64,000 bases of DNA, from assembly GCA_902788485.1 (NCBI GenBank), contig CADAKI010000001.1:27927-91926 (forward strand), given 5' to 3'. Below, one piece after another: positions 14,379-63,513 of the stretch (position 1 is the first letter of the stretch; each line of letters opens with the position of its first letter). Below the pieces are notes generated by a model, which did no database searches, was not told the origin of the DNA, and was given only the letters and a program-made list of their open reading frames with translations. This DNA comes from an uncultured Pseudomonadota bacterium (GTDB lineage Bacteria > Pseudomonadota > Alphaproteobacteria > Rs-D84). A program made the position numbers and the translations under genes.

Positions 14379-14382
14379 AAAA

Positions 14383-14407
14383 ACGGGCAATGCCCGCTTT
14401 TTTTTAA
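14383..14407. terminator. Rho-independent terminator, bidirectional between convergent genes
   Basis: cgggc-aat-gcccg hairpin flanked by AAAAAAA upstream and TTTTTTTT downstream. Confidence 0.55.
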
Positions 14408-24406: not shown

Positions 24407-25684
24407 ATGAAAAACGAAACACGCCCTTTGGCCGACCAAATGCGCCCTGAAACGATTGATGAAATCGTTGGGCAATCAAATTTATTGGGCGAAAATGGAA
24501 TTATTCGTCGCATGGTTGATAATCAAAAACTATCAAACATAATCCTGTGGGGGCCACCGGGGTGCGGCAAAACAACAATCGCCCGCGCATTGGCACATAC
24601 CGTTGACATGGACTTTGTTCCGATGTCCGCCGTATTTTCCGGCTCATCCGACATAAAAAAAGCAATGGATGCCGCCCGCATGAATCGCGACATTGGCCGT
24701 GGGACACTGTTATTCATCGACGAAATTCACCGGTTTAACAAAACCCAACAGGATACATTATTACCATACTTGGAAGACGGTACGGTTGTATTCATCGGCG
24801 CAACCACCGAAAACCCCAGTTTTAATTTAAATAACGCGTTGCTGTCCCGTTGCCACATTGGCGTTTTGTCGGCATTGGGCACGGACGATTTAATGGTTTT
24901 AATCGAACGCGCTGAAAAATTTTTAGGCAAAAAATTACCATTGACCCGCGACGCAAAAATCCATCTGGCACAAATGGCGGACGGCGATGCACGATTTTTA
25001 TTAAACACCATTGAATATATCAGTAACGCAAATTTCAAAGTCGACCTGGACAACGACGCATTGGACAATGCAATACAAAAGCGTCCACCATTGTCGGACA
25101 AAACCGGTGACGAACATTATAATTTGATATCTGCGGTGCATAAATCATTACGCGCATCCGACACCGACGCGGCATTATATTGGGTTGCCCGCATGATGAC
25201 ATCGGGCCAGGACGCAAAATACATTTTCCGCCGCCTTACCCGATTTGCAATGGAGGATATTGGCCTGGCGGACCCGAATGCATTATCTGTCGCAATCGCC
25301 GCATGGAACGCATACGAACGGTTGGGCAGTCCCGAAGGCGACATCGCCCTGACCGAATTAGTTGTGTATTTGGGTACCGCCCCAAAAAGTAATGCATGCG
25401 ACCGCGCAATTCACGCATCATATAAATCTGCGCGTGACACGGGCAGTTTGCCCCCACCAAAAAACATTTTGAACGCCCCAACAAAAATGATGAAAAACAT
25501 GGGATACGGCGCCGGATATATTTATGAACCCGACACCGCATTGGGTTTTTCGGGTCAAAATTGTTTTCCTGAAAAAATGTCGCGCACACGTTTTTATACC
25601 CCTGTCGAACGCGGATTTGAACGCGAAATAAAAAAGCGCATCGAATATTGGGACGGATTACGTGAAAAATTAAACAAAAAATAA
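24407..25684 (+). CDS. rarA: Replication-associated recombination protein A (AAA+ ATPase RarA/MgsA)
   Basis: 425 aa. Walker A GPPGCGKTT, Walker B LFIDEIHRFNK, sensor region, and the RarA C-terminal MgsA domain. Confidence 0.9.
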   Translation: MKNETRPLADQMRPETIDEIVGQSNLLGENGIIRRMVDNQKLSNIILWGPPGCGKTTIARALAHTVDMDFVPMSAVFSGSSDIKKAMDAARMNRDIGRGTLLFIDEIHRFNKTQQDTLLPYLEDGTVVFIGATTENPSFNLNNALLSRCHIGVLSALGTDDLMVLIERAEKFLGKKLPLTRDAKIHLAQMADGDARFLLNTIEYISNANFKVDLDNDALDNAIQKRPPLSDKTGDEHYNLISAVHKSLRASDTDAALYWVARMMTSGQDAKYIFRRLTRFAMEDIGLADPNALSVAIAAWNAYERLGSPEGDIALTELVVYLGTAPKSNACDRAIHASYKSARDTGSLPPPKNILNAPTKMMKNMGYGAGYIYEPDTALGFSGQNCFPEKMSRTRFYTPVERGFEREIKKRIEYWDGLREKLNKK

Positions 25685-25685
25685 A

Positions 25686-25710
25686 AAGTGCCAAATGGCA
25701 CTTTTTTTTA
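25686..25710. terminator. Bidirectional rho-independent terminator
   Basis: agtgcca-aa-tggcact hairpin flanked by AAAAA and TTTTTTTT, between convergent rarA and an OMP gene. Confidence 0.55.
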
Positions 25711-26433
25711 AAACAAAATGTTCAAATACAATCCAACGGTTGATTCTGACTTTTCCCACTCGTACGCGTATGTTGCGCCATATTGCGTGCGACCAAATTG
25801 TTTAATCAATTTCAATTTCAACCATTCGCGGTCAAAATCATCATTTGTTGCAACACGTGCGGTAAATTCCGCCCCGGCGCGCCAACCTTCAATCATGCGG
25901 AAATAAACTTCCGGAGTAAAATCGATATACGACATACCACGCGCGTCATCAAACACCCATGTTGATTTAACCGTTCCGGCCAAAGTCACACCCGCCCATT
26001 GGCGTCCCACACGCAGTCCGGCAAAATAACTGGATTTTGCAAAGTCAGGTTCACGCACATGACGATTTCCGGCAAATCGCGCACCAAACAAAACATCCGT
26101 TGACACATGCGCCGAATTATCATCCGCCAGTCCCGCGCGATATATACCCCCCAATTCAATACTGGAAAAACCGCGTTCTTTGCGTGCACGCACAAAATCA
26201 AATTGATAATGCACATTTGCATTTGCCATCAACCGATTATTCAGACCATACGAAAACGATTGTCCCAAACGCAATAAATCATTTCCATATGTCACGTCCG
26301 TCGTTGACAACAAATGTTCAATTTCCGGCATATACAACGGGTCCGATGTATCAACCGATATCATTTCGCCCGCATCTGCATACGCGGCATTGCACATCAA
26401 CACCGCGCCAAACGCACCATATAACCATTTCAT
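25708..26433 (-). CDS. Outer-membrane beta-barrel protein (hypothetical)
   Basis: 241 aa. Signal peptide, alternating amphipathic beta-strand pattern, aromatic-rich, C-terminal ...YLNILF ending in Phe. Confidence 0.5.
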   Translation of the reverse strand: MKWLYGAFGAVLMCNAAYADAGEMISVDTSDPLYMPEIEHLLSTTDVTYGNDLLRLGQSFSYGLNNRLMANANVHYQFDFVRARKERGFSSIELGGIYRAGLADDNSAHVSTDVLFGARFAGNRHVREPDFAKSSYFAGLRVGRQWAGVTLAGTVKSTWVFDDARGMSYIDFTPEVYFRMIEGWRAGAEFTARVATNDDFDREWLKLKLIKQFGRTQYGATYAYEWEKSESTVGLYLNILF

Positions 26434-26452: not shown

Positions 26453-27610
26453 TTAAAATTGAAATATAACCTGGGCACCCACAGACCACTCGTGCGGACT
26501 TGCAATTTCAACCACAGACGTTGATGCCGCATTCCAATTATCCGCCGTCAGTGGCAAATTACCCCAATACAAATCTAAATTTTTACCTTTGGCACTGTCG
26601 TAAATTGATGTTTTCGCATACAGGTTCAACGCAAACCAATCATTTGGTTGCCAACCGAACGCACCCTTGATTGATGCCTGGTTATGCCAATCATAAAAAC
26701 CATACATACCCTCGACATTTAATGTCCAATCTTCGGCGAGTACGGTCCACACGCCCATGCCCAATTCGCCCATGAACAATGTTTTATCTGCATCACCGTA
26801 TTTCAACATGCCCCACTGCATTAATTCTGGAACTTCCATATAATCGCCATAGATGTCACCTTCCATATCGACAATCCATGCGCGTCCCAAACCATAAATT
26901 GTGGATGTTGCAACCTTGTACCCGACCTTTAAATCACCGATAAAGTAATCAACACCATGTTTTTGATGTTCGTAATATCCGGACAAAGTAGAAATCCAAT
27001 CATTTGTATCAACGATACGACCCTGGATACCCAGGCCATACAAATTCAAATCATCGTTTTTGTATTTATCTTGGTCACCGGTTGAATTTGTCCATGTCAA
27101 TTTATCCCAGTTATATTTTGCCATACCCTGGATTGCGATACGGTCGGTCAGACCAAAACTGATATCTTCTTTGACAGACCATTCAGACAATTTTCTGTTC
27201 ACATCGGCAAATTTATATTTACCCTGCATATATTCAACGGTTGTGACCGAACCAAATTGACCCTGTAATGGTTGATAAAACGGATTTGCCAAGAAATATT
27301 TGCGTTTCGCCGATTTATATGTTTCACCCGGTACATATGTGCGTTTAGATGTCATCACCGGTGCCGGTTTGACATAACCCGATTCCATATTATCATACAT
27401 ACCCGCACGCGACACACCGTGATGCGCCACCGCACGACCATTACCATCAGAATAAGAATCATACGCACTGCGATTTATTTTGATTGTATCACCATCTGCA
27501 TTACGCATATCAATACTGGAATACATTGAACTGCGTGATGATGCCGCCGACGCATCCAACGCCGCAACACATCCCAAAACTGCGCAAATACCAAACAAAT
27601 TTTTTTTCAT
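26453..27610 (-). CDS. Outer-membrane beta-barrel protein (hypothetical)
   Basis: 385 aa. Signal peptide (AVLGCVAALDASA), many Y/W/G-rich amphipathic strands, C-terminal ...GAQVIFQF. Confidence 0.5.
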   Translation of the reverse strand: MKKNLFGICAVLGCVAALDASAASSRSSMYSSIDMRNADGDTIKINRSAYDSYSDGNGRAVAHHGVSRAGMYDNMESGYVKPAPVMTSKRTYVPGETYKSAKRKYFLANPFYQPLQGQFGSVTTVEYMQGKYKFADVNRKLSEWSVKEDISFGLTDRIAIQGMAKYNWDKLTWTNSTGDQDKYKNDDLNLYGLGIQGRIVDTNDWISTLSGYYEHQKHGVDYFIGDLKVGYKVATSTIYGLGRAWIVDMEGDIYGDYMEVPELMQWGMLKYGDADKTLFMGELGMGVWTVLAEDWTLNVEGMYGFYDWHNQASIKGAFGWQPNDWFALNLYAKTSIYDSAKGKNLDLYWGNLPLTADNWNAASTSVVEIASPHEWSVGAQVIFQF

Positions 27611-27780
27611 TTAAAACTCCTTTTCTATCCGGATTATAACACAATTTAATAATCTATAAAAGCCCAAAATTACAATTTTACAAAATGATTAAAATACGCA
27701 AAACCGCACAAATTCTGTTCCGAAGATTATAACGACGAGAAATAAAATAATATTTCCACAACTGAACTCTGTAAACTGTA

Positions 27781-27924
27781 AAAATAGTTATATGTAAAAT
27801 AGTTATAATGGTATAGATGCGCCGTTGTTTGCGAGTGCAGTGTACAAAACGTACATAAACGAGCAAACAACAAGCAGATATGCCATTATAACTATTTTAC
27901 AATATTTGCCGTTTGTTATTTGCG
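27781..27924. repeat. Nested inverted-repeat (MITE-like) element abutting the ftsK stop
   Basis: aaaatagttata at 27781-27792 is repeated directly in aaaatagttataatgg at 27797-27812, which forms a 16-bp inverted repeat with ccattataactatttt at 27883-27898. The 70-nt loop contains inner palindromes (gttgtttgc...gcaaacaac; tgtac-aaaac-gtaca). gccgttgtttgcg at 27820-27832 duplicates the ftsK 3'-terminal gccgtttgttatttgcg at 27908-27924. Confidence 0.5.
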
Positions 27925-30104
27925 TCAGGGGCACTCACCACACCTTCTTGTTCCATGCGTTCCATAAAACCGGCGGCCTTGTTATAACCAATACCCAAAC
28001 GCCGTTGAATGTATGAAATCGTTGGCTTTTTATCACGAATAACAATCTCTTTGGCCTGGGTATATAAATCGCCATCTTTGGTGGCCTTTAATTCTGCGGG
28101 CGACGACGCCGCGGACATTGCCCCGCCCTCTTCATCCGCCATATCGGTGACGCCGGACGCATATTCGGGTTCCGCCATATTACGCAAGAAATCACCAATC
28201 CGCGTCAATTCTTCATCGGAAATAAACGCCGCATGAATTCGCACGGGGACCCTGCCCGCCTCACTAAATAACATATCACCCATTGCCAACAACTGTTCTG
28301 CGCCCTTTTCACCCAATGTGGTCATTGAATCAATCACACTGCGCGCCTGGAAAGAAACACGCGTCGGGAAATTCGCCTTGATAACGCCGGTAATTGTTGT
28401 GGCATCCGGCCGCTGTGTCGCCATAACCAGGTGTATTCCCGCCGCACGCGCCTTTTGCGCAATGCGTTGAACACACGCCTCGACTTCTTTGCGTGCCAAA
28501 GACATCAGGTCTGCAACCTCGTCAATAATTATCACGATATACGGCATATCAGACAAATCGACCTCTTGCGTTTCAAACAACAATTCACCGGTCTCTTCGT
28601 CCGTTCCAACCGCAACCTGTTGAGTAATTTTTTCACCCGCCTCGCGCTTGGCGGCAACAATTTCATTATAACTTTCGATATTGCGTGCATTCACAATTTG
28701 TAATTGTTTATAACGTTCCTCCATTTCGCGCACCGCCCATTTCAATGCATTTACAGCCGCCGCCGGGTCTAATTTAACAATCGGCGTAATCAAATGTGGT
28801 ATGTCGTCCCAGAATCCAAAATCAACACCTTTTGGGTCAATAATAATCAGTTTGCATTTATCCGGCGTAAAATGATAAACGATGGATGTAATAATCGTTT
28901 GCACGAACACAGATTTACCAGACCCCGTGCGTCCGGCAATCAACATATGTGGCATTTTTGCCAAATCAAAATACATTGGATTTCCACCAATATCCACACC
29001 CAACGCCAATGGAATTTTATACCGCGAATTTACAAATATATCGTTTTCAATCAGACCCCGAAACCGCACCGTTTGCCGTTTCAAATTTACCATTTCCACA
29101 CCAATCAGTTGTGTTGATGGAATATGCGCAATACGAATATTTTCCGTCGCCATGGCACGCGTCATATCTTTCACTGTTTTTGTCACATCGGCGATTTTCG
29201 TTCCATCATCCGGCATAAATTCATACAGTGTCACAATCGGACCGGGACGAATACCGGTGACGGTTCCATGCACATTATATTGTGCAAAATGCACCTCCAT
29301 TGCTTCGGCATTGCGTTTCAATTCCGGCGTCACAATATTTTTACCAAACACAGATTTTTCCAAAAATGCCGGATCCGGCAATTCATATTCAACAACCGCA
29401 TCGGCACGTGCCACACGACGCACAGTGCGTTTTTTCTTGGGCTTTTCTGCTTCGACGGGTTCTTCTTCTGCCTCTTCTGTTTCTTCTTCGGGTTCTTCTT
29501 CTATATCTTCACGCATTGGCAAAATATGAAATGCCGACAATACCCATCGAATTGTTCCCCACGCGATTTTTGCCACACGCACAACATAAGACAATTTAAT
29601 ATTTAACAATACACCCGCCATCCATAAAAAACCAACCAATGACAAAACCCCAAACACAATTTGCCAATTACCAACCAACGCACCAACATCCGCCGACACA
29701 ATCGCACCCAACATACCACCGAACGACGAATTTGGTACCAACATACCAAACCCCATACACCCCAACCCCAGTGCAATAAAACCACGCAAAATATTATATT
29801 CAGGGGTGGCATCGTCACTTCGTCCACCGATAAAATACACACCACCACGCATTAAACATAAAAACAAAAACATCATTGGAATAAAACCAAAAACATATCG
29901 CATAAATGCGATAAAATTACCCATTATTCCATGATGACCAAATGTACTGGCGGTCGCCCACCCATCCAAATATGGGTTATGAAACAACGCCGCCAAAACA
30001 GCAACCGCCCCAAACAAAAACATCAACCCGCCCAACAAACGCCAGGCCAAGTCCTTTAATGCCCCAGATAATTTTTCCGGTAAAAATCTTGATTTTTCAC
30101 TCAT
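27897..30104 (-). CDS. ftsK: DNA translocase FtsK
   Basis: 735 aa. N-terminal 4-5 TMs, a Glu-rich linker (EEEPEEETEEAEEEPVEAEKPKKKR), the motor domain with Walker A GRTGSGKSV and DEVADLM, and a C-terminal gamma winged-helix domain. Confidence 0.9.
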   Translation of the reverse strand: MSEKSRFLPEKLSGALKDLAWRLLGGLMFLFGAVAVLAALFHNPYLDGWATASTFGHHGIMGNFIAFMRYVFGFIPMMFLFLCLMRGGVYFIGGRSDDATPEYNILRGFIALGLGCMGFGMLVPNSSFGGMLGAIVSADVGALVGNWQIVFGVLSLVGFLWMAGVLLNIKLSYVVRVAKIAWGTIRWVLSAFHILPMREDIEEEPEEETEEAEEEPVEAEKPKKKRTVRRVARADAVVEYELPDPAFLEKSVFGKNIVTPELKRNAEAMEVHFAQYNVHGTVTGIRPGPIVTLYEFMPDDGTKIADVTKTVKDMTRAMATENIRIAHIPSTQLIGVEMVNLKRQTVRFRGLIENDIFVNSRYKIPLALGVDIGGNPMYFDLAKMPHMLIAGRTGSGKSVFVQTIITSIVYHFTPDKCKLIIIDPKGVDFGFWDDIPHLITPIVKLDPAAAVNALKWAVREMEERYKQLQIVNARNIESYNEIVAAKREAGEKITQQVAVGTDEETGELLFETQEVDLSDMPYIVIIIDEVADLMSLARKEVEACVQRIAQKARAAGIHLVMATQRPDATTITGVIKANFPTRVSFQARSVIDSMTTLGEKGAEQLLAMGDMLFSEAGRVPVRIHAAFISDEELTRIGDFLRNMAEPEYASGVTDMADEEGGAMSAASSPAELKATKDGDLYTQAKEIVIRDKKPTISYIQRRLGIGYNKAAGFMERMEQEGVVSAPDANNKRQIL

Positions 30105-30158
30105 ACCCCGATTATACCATAAAAAATCCTAAAATAAAAGACAGGTTTCAAAATAAAA

Positions 30159-30185
30159 ACCGACGGTTTTCCGTCGGTTTTTTAT
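30159..30185 (-). terminator. Rho-independent terminator downstream of the PAP2 gene
   Basis: accgacgg-tttt-ccgtcggt hairpin with T-runs on both sides. Confidence 0.5.
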
Positions 30186-46992: not shown

Positions 46993-47022
46993 AACGCCAG
47001 ATAAAAATCCGGCGTTTTTTTT
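46993..47022. terminator. Terminator between convergent typA and a glycosyltransferase gene
   Basis: aacgcc-N12-ggcgtt hairpin followed by TTTTTTTT. Confidence 0.45.
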
Positions 47023-54169: not shown

Positions 54170-54238
54170 AAATATTCCCCTTTGTTTTTCTATCCAGATG
54201 ATACTAGGAAAAACCCCTATTTGCAAGCCCGATAATAA

Positions 54239-55462
54239 TTATTTTTTAGACCACAAAACAAACAAAGTTATCACACTCACCGCAATCGAAACCGCCCACA
54301 CGGCCGATGTCATCCCGGTCAATGCGATACACAACGCGCCCAAAATCGGGGCAATAACCTTGGGCAAATATACCGTTGTCCGAAACACCCCATAAAACCG
54401 GGATTGTTCACTTTTATGGGTATTGTCAAAGAAAAACAAATCATGCACCGGTTCCATAAACGCCCCCGATATCTGCCACAGGACAAATACCGCCAACAAT
54501 GGAAAACCATGCAAAAACATTGCCAATGTTGCGAACACTGCGAACGATGCCATACCAATAATCATCAAAACACGCGCGCCAACCCGTCGCACCAGATTTC
54601 CAATAAACAAATCAAAAACAATGTATGGCAAAATTCCCATTGTCAAAACCCACCCCAATACATTTGCAGAAAACCCCTGCTCTATCACAATAATTGGGAC
54701 ATACAAAACACGCATCGCCGACAATGCATAAAAACCAAAATTCACGGCATACGCGCGCGGCATACCACTGCGTCTGAAAAAGACCAAAGTATTTATCCAC
54801 AAAGATTTTAATGTGCGACGCGGATTTACATTTTTAATTTCTTTATCCATTTGCACAATACCAAACCGTTTAAAAAACAGCAATCCACCCGCATAAATCA
54901 TCGCCGATGCCAAAAACGGGATACGATAATTACTGAACCACGCCGCCATATTTAACGCAAACAACGGCGCCACCAACGCACCAATATTCACCCACAAATA
55001 ATACCGCGCATTTAATTTTGCCATCCCGATATTTTTAGAAAAATCCGCCATAAATAACGGAATTAAAATTCCAATAATTGTGGACCCAATACCCGACACC
55101 CAATCCAATGTCACAAAAGTCATGGGCTTAATTGAAAAACTCATCATTGCATAGCAAACAATAACAAATAAAAACGCGGCATATAATAAACGAGCCTTGG
55201 AAAACCATCGCAACAATTCTTTGGAAAACACACCAACAATCATACAAAATACAGAATACATCGCGACATAAACACCAACCACCGACGACGCCAGATTTTC
55301 ATTTCCCAAAATACCGGTAAAAATTCCCAATATAACCAAAGAATAAACCGCATTATAAACACCCGACGCAAACCCTGTAAACAGCCCCAGGTTTGCAAAT
55401 GAATACCCATCAACATTTTCATTTATCGCGATGTATTTGTCTTTGGCCAAAACTCTCTCCAC
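54239..55462 (-). CDS. MFS-type transporter
   Basis: 407 aa, about 12 TMs in a 6+6 arrangement with a central loop. Confidence 0.65.
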   Translation of the reverse strand: MERVLAKDKYIAINENVDGYSFANLGLFTGFASGVYNAVYSLVILGIFTGILGNENLASSVVGVYVAMYSVFCMIVGVFSKELLRWFSKARLLYAAFLFVIVCYAMMSFSIKPMTFVTLDWVSGIGSTIIGILIPLFMADFSKNIGMAKLNARYYLWVNIGALVAPLFALNMAAWFSNYRIPFLASAMIYAGGLLFFKRFGIVQMDKEIKNVNPRRTLKSLWINTLVFFRRSGMPRAYAVNFGFYALSAMRVLYVPIIVIEQGFSANVLGWVLTMGILPYIVFDLFIGNLVRRVGARVLMIIGMASFAVFATLAMFLHGFPLLAVFVLWQISGAFMEPVHDLFFFDNTHKSEQSRFYGVFRTTVYLPKVIAPILGALCIALTGMTSAVWAVSIAVSVITLFVLWSKK

Positions 55463-57545: not shown

Positions 57546-57563
57546 CACACGAACTCGGACATT

Positions 57564-57660
57564 CCCCTTCTTTATGAAAGAAGGGGTGGATGACGAGCAA
57601 TGCGAGTCAGACGGGGCAGTTGTGAAACAGATAAAATTTATTTCTTTTATTTAATCATAA
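57564..57660 (+). repeat. Hairpin-containing ~100-bp repeat, copy A (upstream of the 748-aa gene)
   Basis: Perfect 10-bp stem ccccttcttt-ATG-aaagaagggg at 57564-57586, followed by tggatgacgagcaatgcgagtcagacggggcagttgtgaaacag and an AT-rich tail. About 85% identical to copy B. Confidence 0.6.
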
Positions 57661-59954: not shown

Positions 59955-59971
59955 ACCCGCCACGTCACCGT

Positions 59972-60090
59972 CCCCTTCTTTATGAAAGAAGGGGTGGATT
60001 GCAAGCGAAGCGAGCAAGACGGGGTAATTGTGCACGGCGACGACAGTCGCCATAAAAAATTTTATTATTCTTTCATTTATAATTATTATT
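59972..60090 (+). repeat. Hairpin-containing ~100-bp repeat, copy B (downstream of the 748-aa gene)
   Basis: ccccttctttatgaaagaaggggtggattgcaagcgaagcgagcaagacggggtaattgtg... with an extra ggcgacgacagtcgcc palindrome. Confidence 0.6.
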
Positions 60091-60099
60091 TTACACCAG

Positions 60100-60170
60100 T
60101 TAAAACAAACATTTCACAATTACCTCCCCCGCTAATGCGGGTACTCCTTCTTTCATAAAGAAAGAGACAG
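60100..60170 (-). repeat. Inverted, partial copy C of the same repeat
   Basis: ctccttcttt-cat-aaagaaagag at 60145-60167 is the reverse-oriented hairpin with one mismatch. The adjacent cacaattacctcccccgc is the reverse complement of the gacgggg..ttgtgaaa segment in copies A and B. Confidence 0.5.
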
Positions 60171-60200
60171 TGCGCAAACACACTGAAAACAATAATTCAT

Positions 60201-60680: not shown

Positions 60681-60785
60681 GATTTGATTATAACATCTGT
60701 TTCACAAAAAAAATAATAAAAAAGTTGTCGGCTTTGCCGACACATTAACTGAACTTTGAACTTTGCACTCTGAACACTAAAAAAA

Positions 60786-60808
60786 AGCCCATCAGGGCTT
60801 TTTTTTAA
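60786..60808 (-). terminator. Rho-independent terminator downstream of yebC
   Basis: agccc-atca-gggct hairpin flanked by A8 and T8. Confidence 0.5.
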
Positions 60809-61521
60809 AGTGCAGCAGTGAATACCTTCTGCACATCATCATTGTCATCCAGCGCATCAACCAATTTTTCTAATTTTGCATACGCCTCGTCATCTAAATC
60901 AACCGGCATATTCGGGACCCAAGTCAATTCCGCACTTTCCGGTTCACCCAATTTATCAGACAAAAATTTCTGCACAGTGATAAAATCATCAGGTTTGGTT
61001 GTGATGATAAACCCTTCCTCTGACGATTCCATATTTTCAACCGCAGTTTCCATAATGATTTCCATCATTTCATCTTCGGTTTTGCCGATGGACGCCGGAT
61101 ACATAATTTGACCCGCGTGTGTGAACATAAACACGACCGAGCCCTCTTCCCCCATATTACCGCCATTTTTGGCAAAAATATTACGGATTTCCGGCACAGT
61201 CCGACGCGGATTATCGGTCAATGCCTCGACAATAACGGGGACCGCATTTGGGCCATACCCTTCGTACCGGACGGCAACAAAATTTTCCGTATTTGCACCG
61301 GACGCCTTGTCAATCGCGCGTTTGATATTATCGTTCGGCATAGAATTTTTGCGTGCCTGCAAAATTGCCAGGCGCAACCGCGGGTTATTATCCGGGTTTT
61401 TATCGCCCATTTTGGCCGCCATTGTTATTTCACGCGCCAACTTGGTAAACAGTCCGCTGCGTGCCGCATCAACCAAACCTTTTTTATGTTGGATGTTGTG
61501 CCATTTACTGTGTCCACTCAT
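60805..61521 (-). CDS. yebC: YebC/PmpR-family transcriptional regulator
   Basis: 238 aa. MSGHSKWHNIQHKKG...AKNGGNMGE consensus. Confidence 0.9.
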   Translation of the reverse strand: MSGHSKWHNIQHKKGLVDAARSGLFTKLAREITMAAKMGDKNPDNNPRLRLAILQARKNSMPNDNIKRAIDKASGANTENFVAVRYEGYGPNAVPVIVEALTDNPRRTVPEIRNIFAKNGGNMGEEGSVVFMFTHAGQIMYPASIGKTEDEMMEIIMETAVENMESSEEGFIITTKPDDFITVQKFLSDKLGEPESAELTWVPNMPVDLDDEAYAKLEKLVDALDDNDDVQKVFTAAL

Positions 61522-63453: not shown

Positions 63454-63490
63454 ATGTATTTATTATGCCCGCAAAGACGGGTAAAAAAAC

Positions 63491-63513
63491 CGCCCAACCG
63501 GGCGATTTTTTTT
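63491..63513. terminator. Bidirectional terminator between convergent mnmE and an acyl-CoA ligase gene
   Basis: cgccc-aacc-gggcg hairpin flanked by A7 and T8. Confidence 0.5.

What the first reader, a model, noticed from the sequence alone, without database searches (positions are those of the whole stretch)
27781..27924. MITE-like nested palindromic element immediately 3' of ftsK that duplicates the ftsK 3' end
A 16-bp inverted repeat (aaaatagttataatgg / ccattataactatttt) encloses 70 nt that contain two further palindromes. The right arm overlaps the ftsK stop codon. A 12-bp direct repeat of the left arm lies just outside. An imperfect copy of the last ~17 nt of the ftsK coding sequence (gccgtt(t)gtt(at)ttgcg) sits inside the element. 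Together these suggest an insertion that targeted the gene's 3' end and regenerated it, or a structured 3'-UTR RNA element that doubles as the ftsK terminator and the OMP-gene promoter region.
Basis: seen in the sequence. Interest (0 to 1): 0.5.

Follow-up and report, generated by a model that had tools for sequence, protein, structure and literature searches.

The report
Conserved hairpin repeat abutting stop codons
The palindrome after ftsK is one copy of an apparently undescribed ~110-base hairpin repeat that uncultured gut Alphaproteobacteria place at the stop codons of housekeeping genes, in the slot where ordinary transcription terminators sit; its structure is strongly conserved, but its function is inferred only.

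Summary
The nested palindrome is real: a 109-nt hairpin at 27793-27901, folding z = -6 to -8, with the ftsK stop codon inside its gene-proximal arm. It is the only copy in the 64-kb window, but it is not unique. A pattern scan and a covariance model found 26 distinct units in related metagenomic contigs, behind ten different genes: ftsK, rpsR, yebC, rbfA, dnaN, dnaA, efp, an MFS gene, an AMP-binding enzyme gene and one unknown gene.

Every unit has the same orientation as the upstream gene. The stop codon lies inside, or at most 15 nt before, a conserved TATAAYGG box. Inner and outer stems covary: 21 pairs show double changes and 89.5% of cells are paired, against 30-53% in slid controls. In orthologous loci the core is 72-99% identical while four-fold sites are 36-68%.

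Copy number at the ftsK slot runs from 0 to 3 among close relatives. The window itself lacks the unit at three sites that relatives fill, and two of those carry ordinary terminators.

Best reading: a REP/ERIC/Correia-like structured repeat in the terminator slot, acting as a 3'-end RNA hairpin. Functional strand, mobility mechanism and function remain unproven. The supposed internal copy of the ftsK 3' end is at chance level, and the next gene's promoter lies outside the element.

The parts
27897..30104 (-). ftsK coding sequence (735 aa). The TAA stop is at 27897-27899.
   Evidence: ORF list and translation. Pfam FtsK_alpha, FtsK_SpoIIIE and FtsK_gamma.
27789..27906 (-). One full unit of the hairpin repeat family, as matched by the covariance model.
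   Evidence: cmsearch 128 bits, E = 3.7e-28, model positions 1-117.
27892..27901 (-). Gene-proximal (5') outer arm, TGTAAAATAG. It contains the ftsK stop codon and the last two bases of the Leu codon. This arm is context-specific.
   Evidence: Outer arms differ and covary between contexts.
27883..27891 (-). Conserved 5' box, TTATAATGG (family consensus TATAAYGG).
   Evidence: At least 90% conserved columns that were not part of the search pattern. In 8 units the upstream gene's TAA is the TAA inside this box.
27872..27882 (-). 5' side of the conserved internal-loop region, CATATCTGCTT. It includes the C.A mismatch and the UC/UC 2x2 loop.
27863..27871 (-). Inner stem, 5' half, GTTGTTTGC.
   Evidence: I7. 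Compensatory swaps to GATTCCGGC, GTTGTTGGC, GTTGTTACC and others in other units.
27833..27862 (-). Conserved apical region, TCGTTTATGTACGTTTTGTACACTGCACTC. It includes TTGTACACT at 27839-27847.
   Evidence: TTGTACAC was part of the search pattern, but ATGTA and the flanking CTCG/CTC were not.
27824..27832 (-). Inner stem, 3' half, GCAAACAAC.
27812..27823 (-). 3' side of the conserved internal-loop region, GGCGCATCTATA.
27803..27811 (-). Conserved 3' box, CCATTATAA (family consensus CCRTTMTA).
   Evidence: Pair 30/113 is a T.C mismatch in 13 of 22 units.
27793..27802 (-). Distal (3') outer arm, CTATTTTACA, complementary to the ftsK end.
27777..27792 (-). Tandem duplicate of the distal arm, TATAACTATTTTTACA.
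   Evidence: D2. Absent in L004.
27687..27776 (-). About 90-nt tail of the inserted block. It is shared with L004 and L007 and absent from empty-site relatives. Function unknown. It begins with heptamer-like repeats (CAGAGTTCAG).
27664..27686 (-). Relic copy of the ftsK end plus arm, ATTTTGTAAAATTGTAATTTTGG. It sits at the distal junction of the inserted block and resembles a target-site duplication.
   Evidence: D1, 78% to 27883-27905. The junction matches the empty sites ATTGTAATTTAGGGC of L008, L010 and L013.
27633..27660 (-). Promoter-like site of the downstream gene (TTTATA, 16 nt, TG-n-TATAAT). It lies outside the repeat unit.
   Evidence: Conserved in filled and empty relatives.
26453..27610 (-). 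Downstream gene, 385 aa, signal-peptide-like N terminus, no Pfam family. It is not part of the element.

Best explanation
The feature is one member of a lineage-specific family of ~110-nt hairpin repeats in uncultured gut Alphaproteobacteria (relatives of MAG UBA3635).

Anatomy of a unit, read in the sense of the upstream gene:
- an A-rich, context-specific arm that contains or directly follows the gene's stop codon;
- a conserved TATAAYGG box;
- a conserved region of small pyrimidine internal loops;
- a 9-bp stem of variable sequence;
- a conserved ~30-nt apical region;
- the mirror-image 3' half, ending in a T-rich context-specific arm.

The unit sits in the slot where this genome normally places intrinsic terminators, 1-8 nt after the stop codon.

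Shown: the family exists, the fold is under selection, orientation and position are fixed relative to the upstream gene, and units are gained, lost and duplicated.

Inferred: the unit is transcribed as the 3' end of the upstream mRNA (here ftsK). There it would act as a large 3' stem-loop that ends or pauses transcription and shields the message from 3' exonucleases. Because the stop codon is buried in the stem, it may also slow translation termination, as shown for E. coli REPs within 15 nt of a stop codon.

Also inferred: the conserved loops and apex are the recognition site of an unidentified trans-acting factor, either a nuclease or RNA-binding protein or the enzyme that spreads the element. 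The context-specific outer arms are most simply explained by selection for pairing, perhaps helped by template-switch 'perfection' of the palindrome.
For: Family:
- A metagenome scan gave 19 loci with true 67- or 68-nt matches. cmsearch found 26 distinct sense units at 43-128 bits. These include three full-length units that do not match the search pattern.

Structure:
- 89.5% of cells are paired, against 30-53% with slid partners. 21 pairs carry double changes. 0 of 500 shuffles reach the observed values.
- Per-unit folds all give the same long hairpin.
- Orthologous rpsR units show a compensatory C-G to T-A change in the outer stem.

Position and orientation:
- Wherever an upstream ORF could be called, it is on the same strand, and its stop codon lies from inside the TATAAY box to 15 nt before it in 22 of 22 units.
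- This holds for ten different upstream genes.
- The downstream gene is 12-250 nt away and is convergent in two contexts.

Constraint:
- Unit cores are 72-99% identical in orthologous loci, where four-fold degenerate sites are only 36-68% identical.

Terminator slot:
- Canonical terminator hairpins in the window start 1-8 nt after stop codons.
- At yebC and at the AMP-binding gene, the window has a canonical terminator where relatives have a unit.
- With filters off, the model's outer stem weakly matches the window's ordinary terminators.
- Most units are followed by T-runs.

Strand:
- G.U outnumbers A.C in stems on the gene-sense strand, 33 to 12 column-by-context combinations.

Precedent:
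- REPs fewer than 16 nt from a stop codon down-regulate translation by stalling ribosomes (PMC12306157, citing Liang et al. 2015).
Against: - No expression data exist, so transcription, 3' ends and any effect on ftsK are untested.
- The predicted RNA fold of the opposite strand is more stable in 21 of 25 units (mean -39.0 versus -32.8 kcal/mol). The conserved UC/UC loops read as tandem G.A on that strand.
- The G.U excess could partly reflect leading-strand C-to-T mutation bias. All units lie on the G-rich strand.
- Transcription direction and replication direction are confounded. About 32% of window ORFs are on the other strand, yet 0 of 10 contexts are.
- The base of the stem is A/U-rich, unlike efficient intrinsic terminators.
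- The rpsR-rplI units lack a T-run. In the L037 yebC locus a separate canonical terminator follows the units. The unit is therefore not simply a terminator.
- Conservation estimates are inflated by ascertainment, because 23 core positions were fixed by the search pattern.
- The rapid gain, loss and tandem duplication seen at ftsK also fits a selfish element.
Confidence: 0.55

Rival explanations
1. A selfish, non-autonomous mobile DNA element (REPIN/REP-like or ERIC/Correia-like MITE) that acts as a single-stranded DNA hairpin. A host-encoded transposase would recognise the conserved core, for example an HUH/RAYT enzyme working on the lagging-strand template or a TA-targeting DDE enzyme. Core conservation would then reflect transposase recognition and homogenisation between copies, not a service to the host. 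Stop-codon adjacency would reflect target choice plus purging of harmful insertions. This overlaps with the best explanation, since a mobile origin and an RNA-level effect can both be true.
For: - Presence is patchy on the FtsK tree. L025 has 2 units, L013, L010 and L008 are empty, L009 has 1, L007 has 3, L011 has half a unit although its FtsK is 99% identical to L007's, and window and L004 have 1.
- The window is empty at three sites that relatives fill.
- Tandem, chimeric and internally deleted units occur.
- The same discrete inner-stem types are shared between unrelated loci.
- The ftsK end is duplicated at the distal junction of the inserted block.
- The conserved core begins and ends with TA, as in ERIC/RU elements with TA target duplication (PMC2759123).
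- All units lie on the G-rich (leading) strand.
- RAYT cleaves single-stranded REP DNA (PMC3733652).
Against: - The hairpin tips are not conserved terminal repeats. They differ in each context and covary, including between orthologues.
- The rpsR-rplI unit is kept at the same site in five genomes whose synonymous sites are near saturation.
- No transposase gene was identified. Pfam was run on only 14 proteins flanking units, so the held sequence was not systematically screened.
- No per-unit target-site duplication could be defined.
- Target preference alone does not explain 22 of 22 units touching a stop codon in one orientation.
Confidence: 0.3
2. An independent small-RNA gene. Either a sense RNA starts from the conserved TATAAT box, or an RNA is made from the opposite strand, whose fold is predicted to be more stable and carries tandem G.A motifs. 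Its conserved loops would act in trans or bind a protein.
For: - The TATAAY box is more conserved than pairing requires. T3 faces C in 13 of 22 units.
- The opposite-strand fold is more stable in 21 of 25 units.
- The apex and loops are strongly conserved.
Against: - No -35-like hexamer is conserved 16-18 nt upstream of the box (median 2 of 6 matches across 13 contexts), and there is no extended -10.
- A transcript starting after the box would lack the partner of the 3' arm, yet that arm covaries with it.
- The second UC/UC loop is not kept as G.A/A.G on the opposite strand in the rpsR and yebC units.
- Stem wobble pairs favour the gene-sense strand.
Confidence: 0.07
3. A double-stranded or cruciform DNA site for a chromosomal protein, such as a nucleoid, replication or recombination factor, unrelated to RNA.
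For: - Constant orientation with respect to the G-rich strand.
- Conserved, asymmetric internal mismatches.
- Several host genes are replication or repair genes: dnaA, dnaN, ftsK, and loci next to ruvC and recA.
Against: - A duplex-DNA site would not need compensatory changes along ~40 pairs or tolerate G.T preferentially.
- Strict contact with stop codons is unexplained.
- Copy number varies from 0 to 3 between near-identical strains.
Confidence: 0.05
4. A one-off long intrinsic terminator of ftsK, or a chance palindrome with no relatives.
For: - Only one copy is present in the 64-kb window.
- Short T-runs follow the hairpin.
Against: - 26 distinct related units lie behind ten different genes.
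- None of 200 shuffles folds as well.
- There is covariation.
Confidence: 0.01

Closest known systems
REP / BIME and REPIN elements of Gammaproteobacteria
   Same: - Repeated extragenic palindromes lying mostly downstream of coding regions, between co-directional or convergent genes, and plausibly transcribed as RNA hairpins (PMC3733652).
- They often occur in clusters.
- REPs within 15 nt of a stop codon affect translation of the upstream gene (PMC12306157, citing Liang et al. 2015).
- Copy number varies between strains.
   Different: - REPs are 20-40 nt with a GTAG or CGTC head, and their whole sequence is the conserved part. Here the unit is ~110 nt, and the hairpin tips are context-specific while the interior is conserved.
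- Every unit seen here touches a stop codon in one orientation, against about 11% of E. coli REPs (PMC12306157).
- No RAYT gene has been linked to this family.
ERIC / RU-1 (127-bp enterobacterial intergenic repeats) and related RU elements
   Same: - Similar size.
- A stable stem-loop, with TA at both ends of the conserved part.
- Location in transcribed intergenic regions.
- Occasional fusion with a gene's 3' end so that the element supplies the stop codon (PMC2759123).
   Different: - ERIC has conserved terminal inverted repeats and a TA target duplication, and is found in both orientations (orientation from my own knowledge).
- No sequence similarity.
- Here the orientation is fixed and extra context-specific stems extend the hairpin.
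Correia repeat-enclosed elements (CREE/NEMIS) of Neisseria
   Same: - A 100-150-bp hairpin-forming repeat with a conserved core.
- Can bind RNase III, which either cleaves it or protects it.
- Ends that resemble -10 boxes.
- Presence/absence differences between strains that alter regulation (PMC2649163).
- CREE starts TATAGYGG (from my own knowledge), which resembles TATAAYGG here.
   Different: - CREE has 26-bp conserved terminal repeats, occurs in both orientations, is often 5' of genes, and has more than 100 copies per genome.
- Here there is one copy in 64 kb, always 3' of a gene, with variable tips.
- The resemblance of the first 8 nt was not tested for significance.
Intrinsic (Rho-independent) terminators, including bidirectional A-tract/T-tract terminators
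   Same: - Same slot directly after the stop codon.
- An A-rich 5' flank and a T-rich 3' flank that pair.
- Canonical terminators occupy the orthologous slot where the unit is absent.
   Different: - About 90 nt of conserved, non-GC-rich sequence replaces the short GC-rich stem-loop.
- Some units lack a T-run or are followed by a separate canonical terminator.

Membership tests
MITE (non-autonomous DNA transposon) | Conserved terminal inverted repeats at the very ends of the element | tested here: not met
   The outermost 9-12 bp of each hairpin differ in every context and covary. Only the internal TATAAYGG...CCRTTMTA and what lies between are conserved.
MITE (non-autonomous DNA transposon) | Target-site duplication flanking each copy | tested here: inconclusive
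   A 7-23-nt duplicate of the ftsK end flanks the whole ~230-nt block at the ftsK locus. No duplication could be defined around individual units, or at the yebC, MFS and AMP-binding loci.
MITE (non-autonomous DNA transposon) | Multiple dispersed copies and insertion polymorphism between relatives | tested here: met
   Ten gene contexts. Filled versus empty orthologous sites at four loci. There is only one copy in this 64-kb window.
MITE (non-autonomous DNA transposon) | A related autonomous element whose transposase recognises the same ends | not testable with these tools
   No complete genome of the lineage could be scanned.
REP / REPIN | A 20-40-nt imperfect palindrome tagged at one end by GTAG or CGTC | tested here: not met
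   The unit is ~110 nt. GTAG occurs only inside the apical region of some units (ATGTAGC), not at an end. Definition from PMC3733652.
REP / REPIN | Associated RAYT (HUH tyrosine transposase) gene in the genome | not tested
   Only 64 kb of this genome and about 290 kb of related contigs were available. Pfam was run on five window proteins and nine proteins flanking units in relatives, and none was a transposase.
Intrinsic terminator | A GC-rich stem immediately followed by a U-tract | tested here: inconclusive
   T-runs follow most units but not the rpsR-rplI ones. The stem base is A/U-rich. The consensus scan did not call a terminator on the ftsK-sense strand at this site. A separate canonical terminator follows the units in L037.
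Any Rfam 15 family | A score at or above the family's gathering threshold | tested here: not met
   No match in the whole window at gathering thresholds. At E <= 10 on 27600-28000 there were only generic long-hairpin matches to plant miRNA precursors, at 22 bits against thresholds of 140-200.
Structured cis-acting RNA element (generic) | A secondary structure supported by compensatory changes beyond controls | tested here: met
   21 pairs with double changes and a covariation score of 0.283, against 0.046-0.084 for slid controls and 0.116 for shuffles (0 of 500 reach it).
Structured cis-acting RNA element (generic) | Evidence that the folded strand is transcribed | not testable with these tools
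   No transcriptome data. Indirect evidence is split. Position, orientation and G.U counts favour the gene-sense strand. Predicted stability favours the other strand.

The most novel reading that the evidence does not exclude
The units may be a host-maintained 'designer terminator' module. A conserved structured RNA would replace the simple stem-loop of intrinsic terminators behind selected essential genes (ftsK, dnaA, dnaN, rpsR, efp, rbfA, yebC). Because the stop codon is locked into its stem and its loops are read by a dedicated protein, it would couple translation termination of the upstream gene to mRNA 3'-end formation or decay. This would be a lineage-wide post-transcriptional control layer that spreads by swapping into terminator slots.
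Probability: 0.15. Interest if true: 0.75.

Novelty: new variant of a known kind. Interest (0 to 1): 0.55.

Why it matters
Repeated palindromes such as REP, ERIC and Correia elements are known to shape mRNA stability, termination and translation, but they are described almost entirely from cultured Gamma- and Betaproteobacteria.

This family comes from uncultured gut Alphaproteobacteria and combines three unusual properties. Every unit seen touches a stop codon in one fixed orientation. The interior is conserved while the closing stems are context-specific and covary. It alternates with ordinary terminators in the same slot between close relatives.

That makes it a clean natural system for two questions. 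First, does a structured 3' hairpin that buries the stop codon tune expression of essential genes? Second, how does such an element reach terminator slots?

For annotation, the covariance model gives a specific marker, so these regions need not be mislabelled as generic terminators or miRNA-like hairpins.

Tried and rejected
- Rfam at gathering thresholds (whole window) and at E <= 10 (27600-28000): nothing real.
- tRNA and tmRNA scan: none.
- Other copies in the window: none by BLASTN-short, motif scans with 2 mismatches, or cmsearch with filters off.
- Exact 19-mer arm scan of one genome per species: four loci. Only L004 (Alphaproteobacteria UBA3635) is the orthologous site. L003, L005 and L006 are single-arm matches with no model hit, so they are chance.
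- Viral contig scan with the unit pattern: five matches, all of 69-72 nt rather than the 67-68 nt of true units. I judged them to be chance matches and did not test them with the model.
- Small peptide inside the unit. The 17-codon ORF in the window copy (ATGTAC...TAA) is interrupted in most units (ATG TAG), and the opposite-strand 13-codon ORF is not kept in the GATTCCGGC-type units. This was read directly and rejected.
- Own sigma-70 promoter using the TATAAT box: no conserved -35.
- The unit as the promoter of the downstream gene: the promoter-like site lies outside it and is present in empty-site relatives.
- Internal duplicate of the ftsK 3' end: chance level.
- Integron attC site, considered from my own knowledge of attC. 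The ends do not fit RYYYAAC/GTTRRRY and the flanking genes are core genes, so it was rejected.
- DNA-uptake-sequence pair in a terminator: the conserved motifs do not occur singly elsewhere in the window, so it was rejected.
- Separating transcription orientation from replication orientation by GC skew: failed, because all ten contexts lie on the G-rich strand.
Full report
**1. What is in the window**

ftsK lies on the minus strand at 27897-30104. It encodes 735 aa with Pfam FtsK alpha, motor and gamma domains. The next gene on the same strand is 26453-27610 (385 aa, no Pfam family). That leaves a 286-nt, 25-32% G+C spacer.

The spacer starts with a long nested palindrome:
- Arms 27793-27820 and 27874-27901, 28 nt at 89% complementarity, of which the outer 19 bp are perfect.
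- An inner 9-bp stem, 27824-27832 with 27863-27871.
- An apical TGTAC/GTACA pair.

The region folds as a single 109-nt hairpin. MFE is -47.3 kcal/mol (z = -6.2) on the ftsK-sense strand and -62.3 kcal/mol (z = -8.3) on the other strand. No shuffle folds as well.

The ftsK TAA stop (27897-27899) lies inside the gene-proximal arm. It is a window-lineage tandem duplication of the distal arm and is missing from the closest relative.

The alleged internal copy of the ftsK 3' end is a 10-nt match with one mismatch. 5.5% of other ftsK 17-mers match the interior equally well. The segment is also the family-wide inner stem (section 3). I therefore treat it as chance.

**2. Nothing else like it in the window, and nothing in the libraries**

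- BLASTN-short, motif scans and a covariance-model search with all filters off find no second copy in the 64 kb.
- Rfam 15 has no match at gathering scores. At E <= 10 it gives only generic long-hairpin matches to plant miRNA precursors, far below threshold.
- There are no tRNA or tmRNA genes.

**3. Relatives show it is a family**

The exact FtsK protein occurs on metagenome contigs that are identical across the 400 nt around the ftsK end. An exact scan for the arm 19-mer in one genome per species recovered the orthologous locus in 'Alphaproteobacteria bacterium UBA3635' (L004). That places the organism among uncultured Alphaproteobacteria.

FtsK homologues at 99% down to 68% identity exist. 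Fetching their contigs shows that the ftsK slot holds very different contents:

| Locus | Content of the ftsK slot |
|---|---|
| L004 | one unit |
| L007 | three tandem units |
| L009 | one unit plus a degenerate one |
| L011 | half a unit (FtsK 99% identical to L007's) |
| L008, L010, L013 | nothing; the stop codon is followed within ~60 nt by the next gene |

The tandem units of L007 differ in the inner stem by a full compensatory swap, GTTGTTTGC/GCAAACAAC versus GATTCCGGC/GCTGGAATC.

I then scanned the JGI metagenome collection with a pattern made from three blocks invariant in the six units known at that point. It returned 30 loci. Nineteen carry matches of 67 nt (68 nt in L021), like the window copy. 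The other eleven have different spans and no model hit, so they are chance. The same pattern in viral contigs gave only matches of 69-72 nt, which I judge to be chance; they were not run through the model.

**4. Anatomy and covariation**

The 22 distinct units were aligned. I mapped the window's fold onto the alignment and counted pairs:

| Measure | Observed | Controls |
|---|---|---|
| Cells forming a standard pair | 89.5% | 30-53% with the 3' partner slid by 1-3 columns |
| Pairs with changes on both sides | 21 of 41 (96 cells) | 11-15 in slid versions |
| Covariation score | 0.283 | 0.046-0.084 slid; 0.116 shuffled (0 of 500 reach it) |

Each unit on its own folds into the same long hairpin.

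A covariance model (R1) searched over the window and 41 loci found 26 distinct sense-strand units. Three are full-length and diverged, and do not satisfy the search pattern: L026:229-346, L037:5418-5534 and L025:3447-3564. In these, the previously 'invariant' UGC/GCA helix has become UAC/GUA, and AUA/UAU has become GCA/UGC. These are further compensatory changes.

The unit, in the sense of the upstream gene, reads:
1. a context-specific A-rich arm;
2. TATAAYGG;
3. C-AUA-UC-UGC-UU;
4. a 9-bp variable stem;
5. CUCGYUYAUGUA - loop - UACACURCRCUY;
6. the 3' half of the stem;
7. N-GCR-UC-UAU-A-CCRUUMUA;
8. a context-specific T-rich arm.

The outermost 9-12 bp are unrelated in sequence between contexts, yet they pair. 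Examples are AAAAAACAA/TTGTTTTTT behind dnaA, TAAATTGGC/ACCAATTTA behind rpsR and TATCGAAA/TTTCGATA behind the MFS gene. Between orthologous rpsR units they differ by a compensatory C-G to T-A change. This is the opposite of a MITE, whose tips are its conserved part.

**5. Position and orientation**

For every unit where an upstream ORF could be called, that ORF is on the same strand and its stop codon overlaps the 5' end of the model match. A direct measurement gives the stop codon between -5 nt and +15 nt before the TATAAY box in 22 of 22 units. A value of -5 means the TAA is the TAA inside the box, which holds in 8 units by my reading (the script's frame choice for L029 and L035 was corrected by eye).

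The upstream genes are ftsK, rpsR (followed by rplI), yebC (followed by ruvC), rbfA, dnaN, dnaA, efp, an MFS transporter gene (followed by recA), an AMP-binding enzyme gene and an unknown secreted protein gene. rplI, ruvC and recA were identified by reading the proteins; they were not run through Pfam. Downstream genes start 12-250 nt after the unit and are convergent in two contexts.

**6. Constraint in orthologous loci**

| Locus set | Unit core identity | Four-fold degenerate sites of the adjacent gene |
|---|---|---|
| rpsR-rplI (4 genomes compared) | 86-99% | 41-55% |
| ftsK (5 genomes compared) | 72-98% | 36-68% |

The lowest ftsK values come from stem-type swaps.

Twenty-three core positions were fixed by the search pattern, which inflates the unit figures. 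Removing them still leaves about 83% against 55% for the most divergent rpsR pair (my arithmetic). The units are therefore under purifying selection, or are being homogenised against a conserved family sequence.

**7. Turnover**

On an FtsK neighbour-joining tree, filled and empty ftsK slots alternate. L025 (most distant) has two units. L013 and L010 are empty. L009 has one. L008 is empty. L007 has three, L011 has half a unit, and window and L004 have one.

All filled loci keep, just before the conserved promoter of the next gene, a relic resembling the ftsK end. In the window this is ATTTTGTAAAATTGTAA-TTTTGGGC at 27664-27686. The empty sites read ATATTGTAA-TTTAGGGC. The inserted block is therefore flanked by a short direct repeat.

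The window contains orthologues of three other unit-bearing loci and is empty at all three:
- yebC-ruvC: the window has a canonical terminator in the slot, AAAAAAGCCC-TGAT-GGGCTTTTTTTT.
- AMP-binding gene: the window has a canonical terminator in the slot, AAAAAATCGCCC-GGTT-GGGCGGTTTTTTT.
- MFS-recA: the window has neither a unit nor a terminator.

Tandem duplicates that include the 3' flank (L025), chimeric units (L007c) and internally deleted units (L036, L037) also occur.

**8. The terminator slot**

In this genome, canonical terminator-like hairpins begin 1-8 nt after the stop codon at eight or more genes. Examples are 14379-14401, 25683-25706, 30157-30180, 46993-47016, 60782-60803 and 63489-63506.

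With filters off, the weak model matches in the window are these terminators, aligned to the model's outer A/T stem with the core deleted. So the unit occupies the position of the terminator stem-loop, between an A-rich and a T-rich flank.

It is not simply a terminator, however. The rpsR-rplI units are followed by an A-run and a ribosome-binding site rather than a T-run. In L037 a separate GC-rich terminator follows the units. The consensus scan calls no terminator on the ftsK-sense strand at the window's unit.

**9. Which strand folds? This is unresolved**

Evidence for the gene-sense strand:
- In the stems, G.U pairs outnumber A.C mismatches on that strand, 72 to 14 cells.
- After dropping two doubtful U.G columns and collapsing by context, the count is 33 to 12 (binomial p about 0.002).
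- The fixed position at the stop codon points the same way.

Evidence against, or confounding:
- The nearest-neighbour energy of the opposite strand is lower in 21 of 25 units. The conserved UC/UC loops become tandem G.A and the C.A mismatch becomes G.U on that strand.
- All ten contexts lie on the G-rich, presumably leading, strand, although about a third of the window's ORFs are on the other strand. Transcription and replication orientation therefore cannot be separated, and a leading-strand C-to-T bias could inflate the G.U count.
- Against the opposite strand being the functional one: its second G.A/A.G loop is not kept in the rpsR and yebC units, and the G.U at the first mismatch is replaced by a bulge in the 'GGATATC' unit type.

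**10. Interpretation**

The best-supported reading is a lineage-specific structured repeat, functionally closest to REP, ERIC and Correia elements. It sits in the terminator slot and is co-transcribed with the upstream gene as a large 3' stem-loop.

Published work on the analogues shows three relevant things. REPs lie mostly downstream of genes and probably act as RNA hairpins (PMC3733652). REPs fewer than 16 nt from a stop codon down-regulate translation by stalling ribosomes (PMC12306157, citing Liang et al. 2015). Correia elements can bind RNase III, which either cleaves or protects them, and they differ between strains (PMC2649163).

The conserved loops and apex imply a sequence-specific reader that I could not identify. 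The rapid gain, loss and duplication, the shared discrete stem types, and the TA...TA ends of the conserved core (compare ERIC/RU, PMC2759123) keep a selfish single-stranded-DNA element as a serious rival that partly overlaps with this reading.

How the context-specific outer arms arise is inference only. It could be selection for pairing, possibly accelerated by template-switch correction of quasi-palindromes (from my own knowledge).

**11. Limits**

- All relatives are metagenomic contigs and there are no expression data.
- One genome-collection scan and one metagenome scan were available, and both used exact patterns. Family size, host range and copy number per genome are therefore unknown.
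- Alignment A4 was fitted to the model, and model E-values are rough.

Noticed in passing
window 59955-60185 (minus strand); partial copies at window 57563-57624, L016 8348-8482, L026 4271-4405 and L029 4821-4950: A second, unrelated, strongly structured ~230-nt region lies between the end of ruvC and the convergent 748-aa gene. It has 30-nt inverted arms (59966-59995 / 60143-60172), MFE -95.8 kcal/mol and z = -9.45. It has no Rfam match at gathering thresholds. Partial copies elsewhere suggest another repeat family.
   Followed up: partly
window 27755-27778 and 60749-60772: Short heptamer-like repeats (CAGAGTTCAG / AGTGCAA / AGTTCAA) follow both the ftsK unit and the yebC terminator. A longer version follows the units in L007. 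Three matches against 0.25 expected.
   Followed up: partly
window 14379-14401, 25683-25706, 30157-30180, 46993-47016, 60782-60803, 63489-63506: Canonical terminator hairpins in this genome start only 1-8 nt after stop codons, often with the stop inside the A-tract. The one at 25683-25706 serves two convergent genes. 3' UTRs are therefore extremely compact.
   Followed up: yes
window 60681-60810, 54170-54244 and just downstream of 63530: The window's yebC-ruvC, MFS-recA and AMP-binding-gene slots lack the repeat unit, while the orthologous slots in L037, L016, L026 and L027 carry one.
   Followed up: yes
whole window: There is a strong and steady GC skew, about -0.1 to -0.4 on the plus strand. 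It remains negative even over the plus-strand gene at 24407-25684, which indicates a marked replication-strand asymmetry.
   Followed up: partly
L012 12257-13126: In one relative, an extra 289-aa ORF with no Pfam family lies on the opposite strand between ftsK and the downstream gene. Directly after the ftsK stop there is a short hairpin, AAACCATTATAAATATATGGTTT, that contains the unit's CCATTATAA box. It may be a footprint of a lost unit.
   Followed up: no
L004 4775-4813: The closest relative has a ~39-nt insertion with a GC-rich hairpin (CTCGCC-AAAA-GGCGAG, no T-run) just after the unit. It lies where the window instead has the 15-16-bp arm duplication.
   Followed up: no
window 26453-27610 and 25708-26433: The two genes downstream of ftsK (385 aa with a signal-peptide-like N terminus, and 241 aa) have no Pfam family. 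They are conserved in synteny in the relatives whose downstream flank was held.
   Followed up: no
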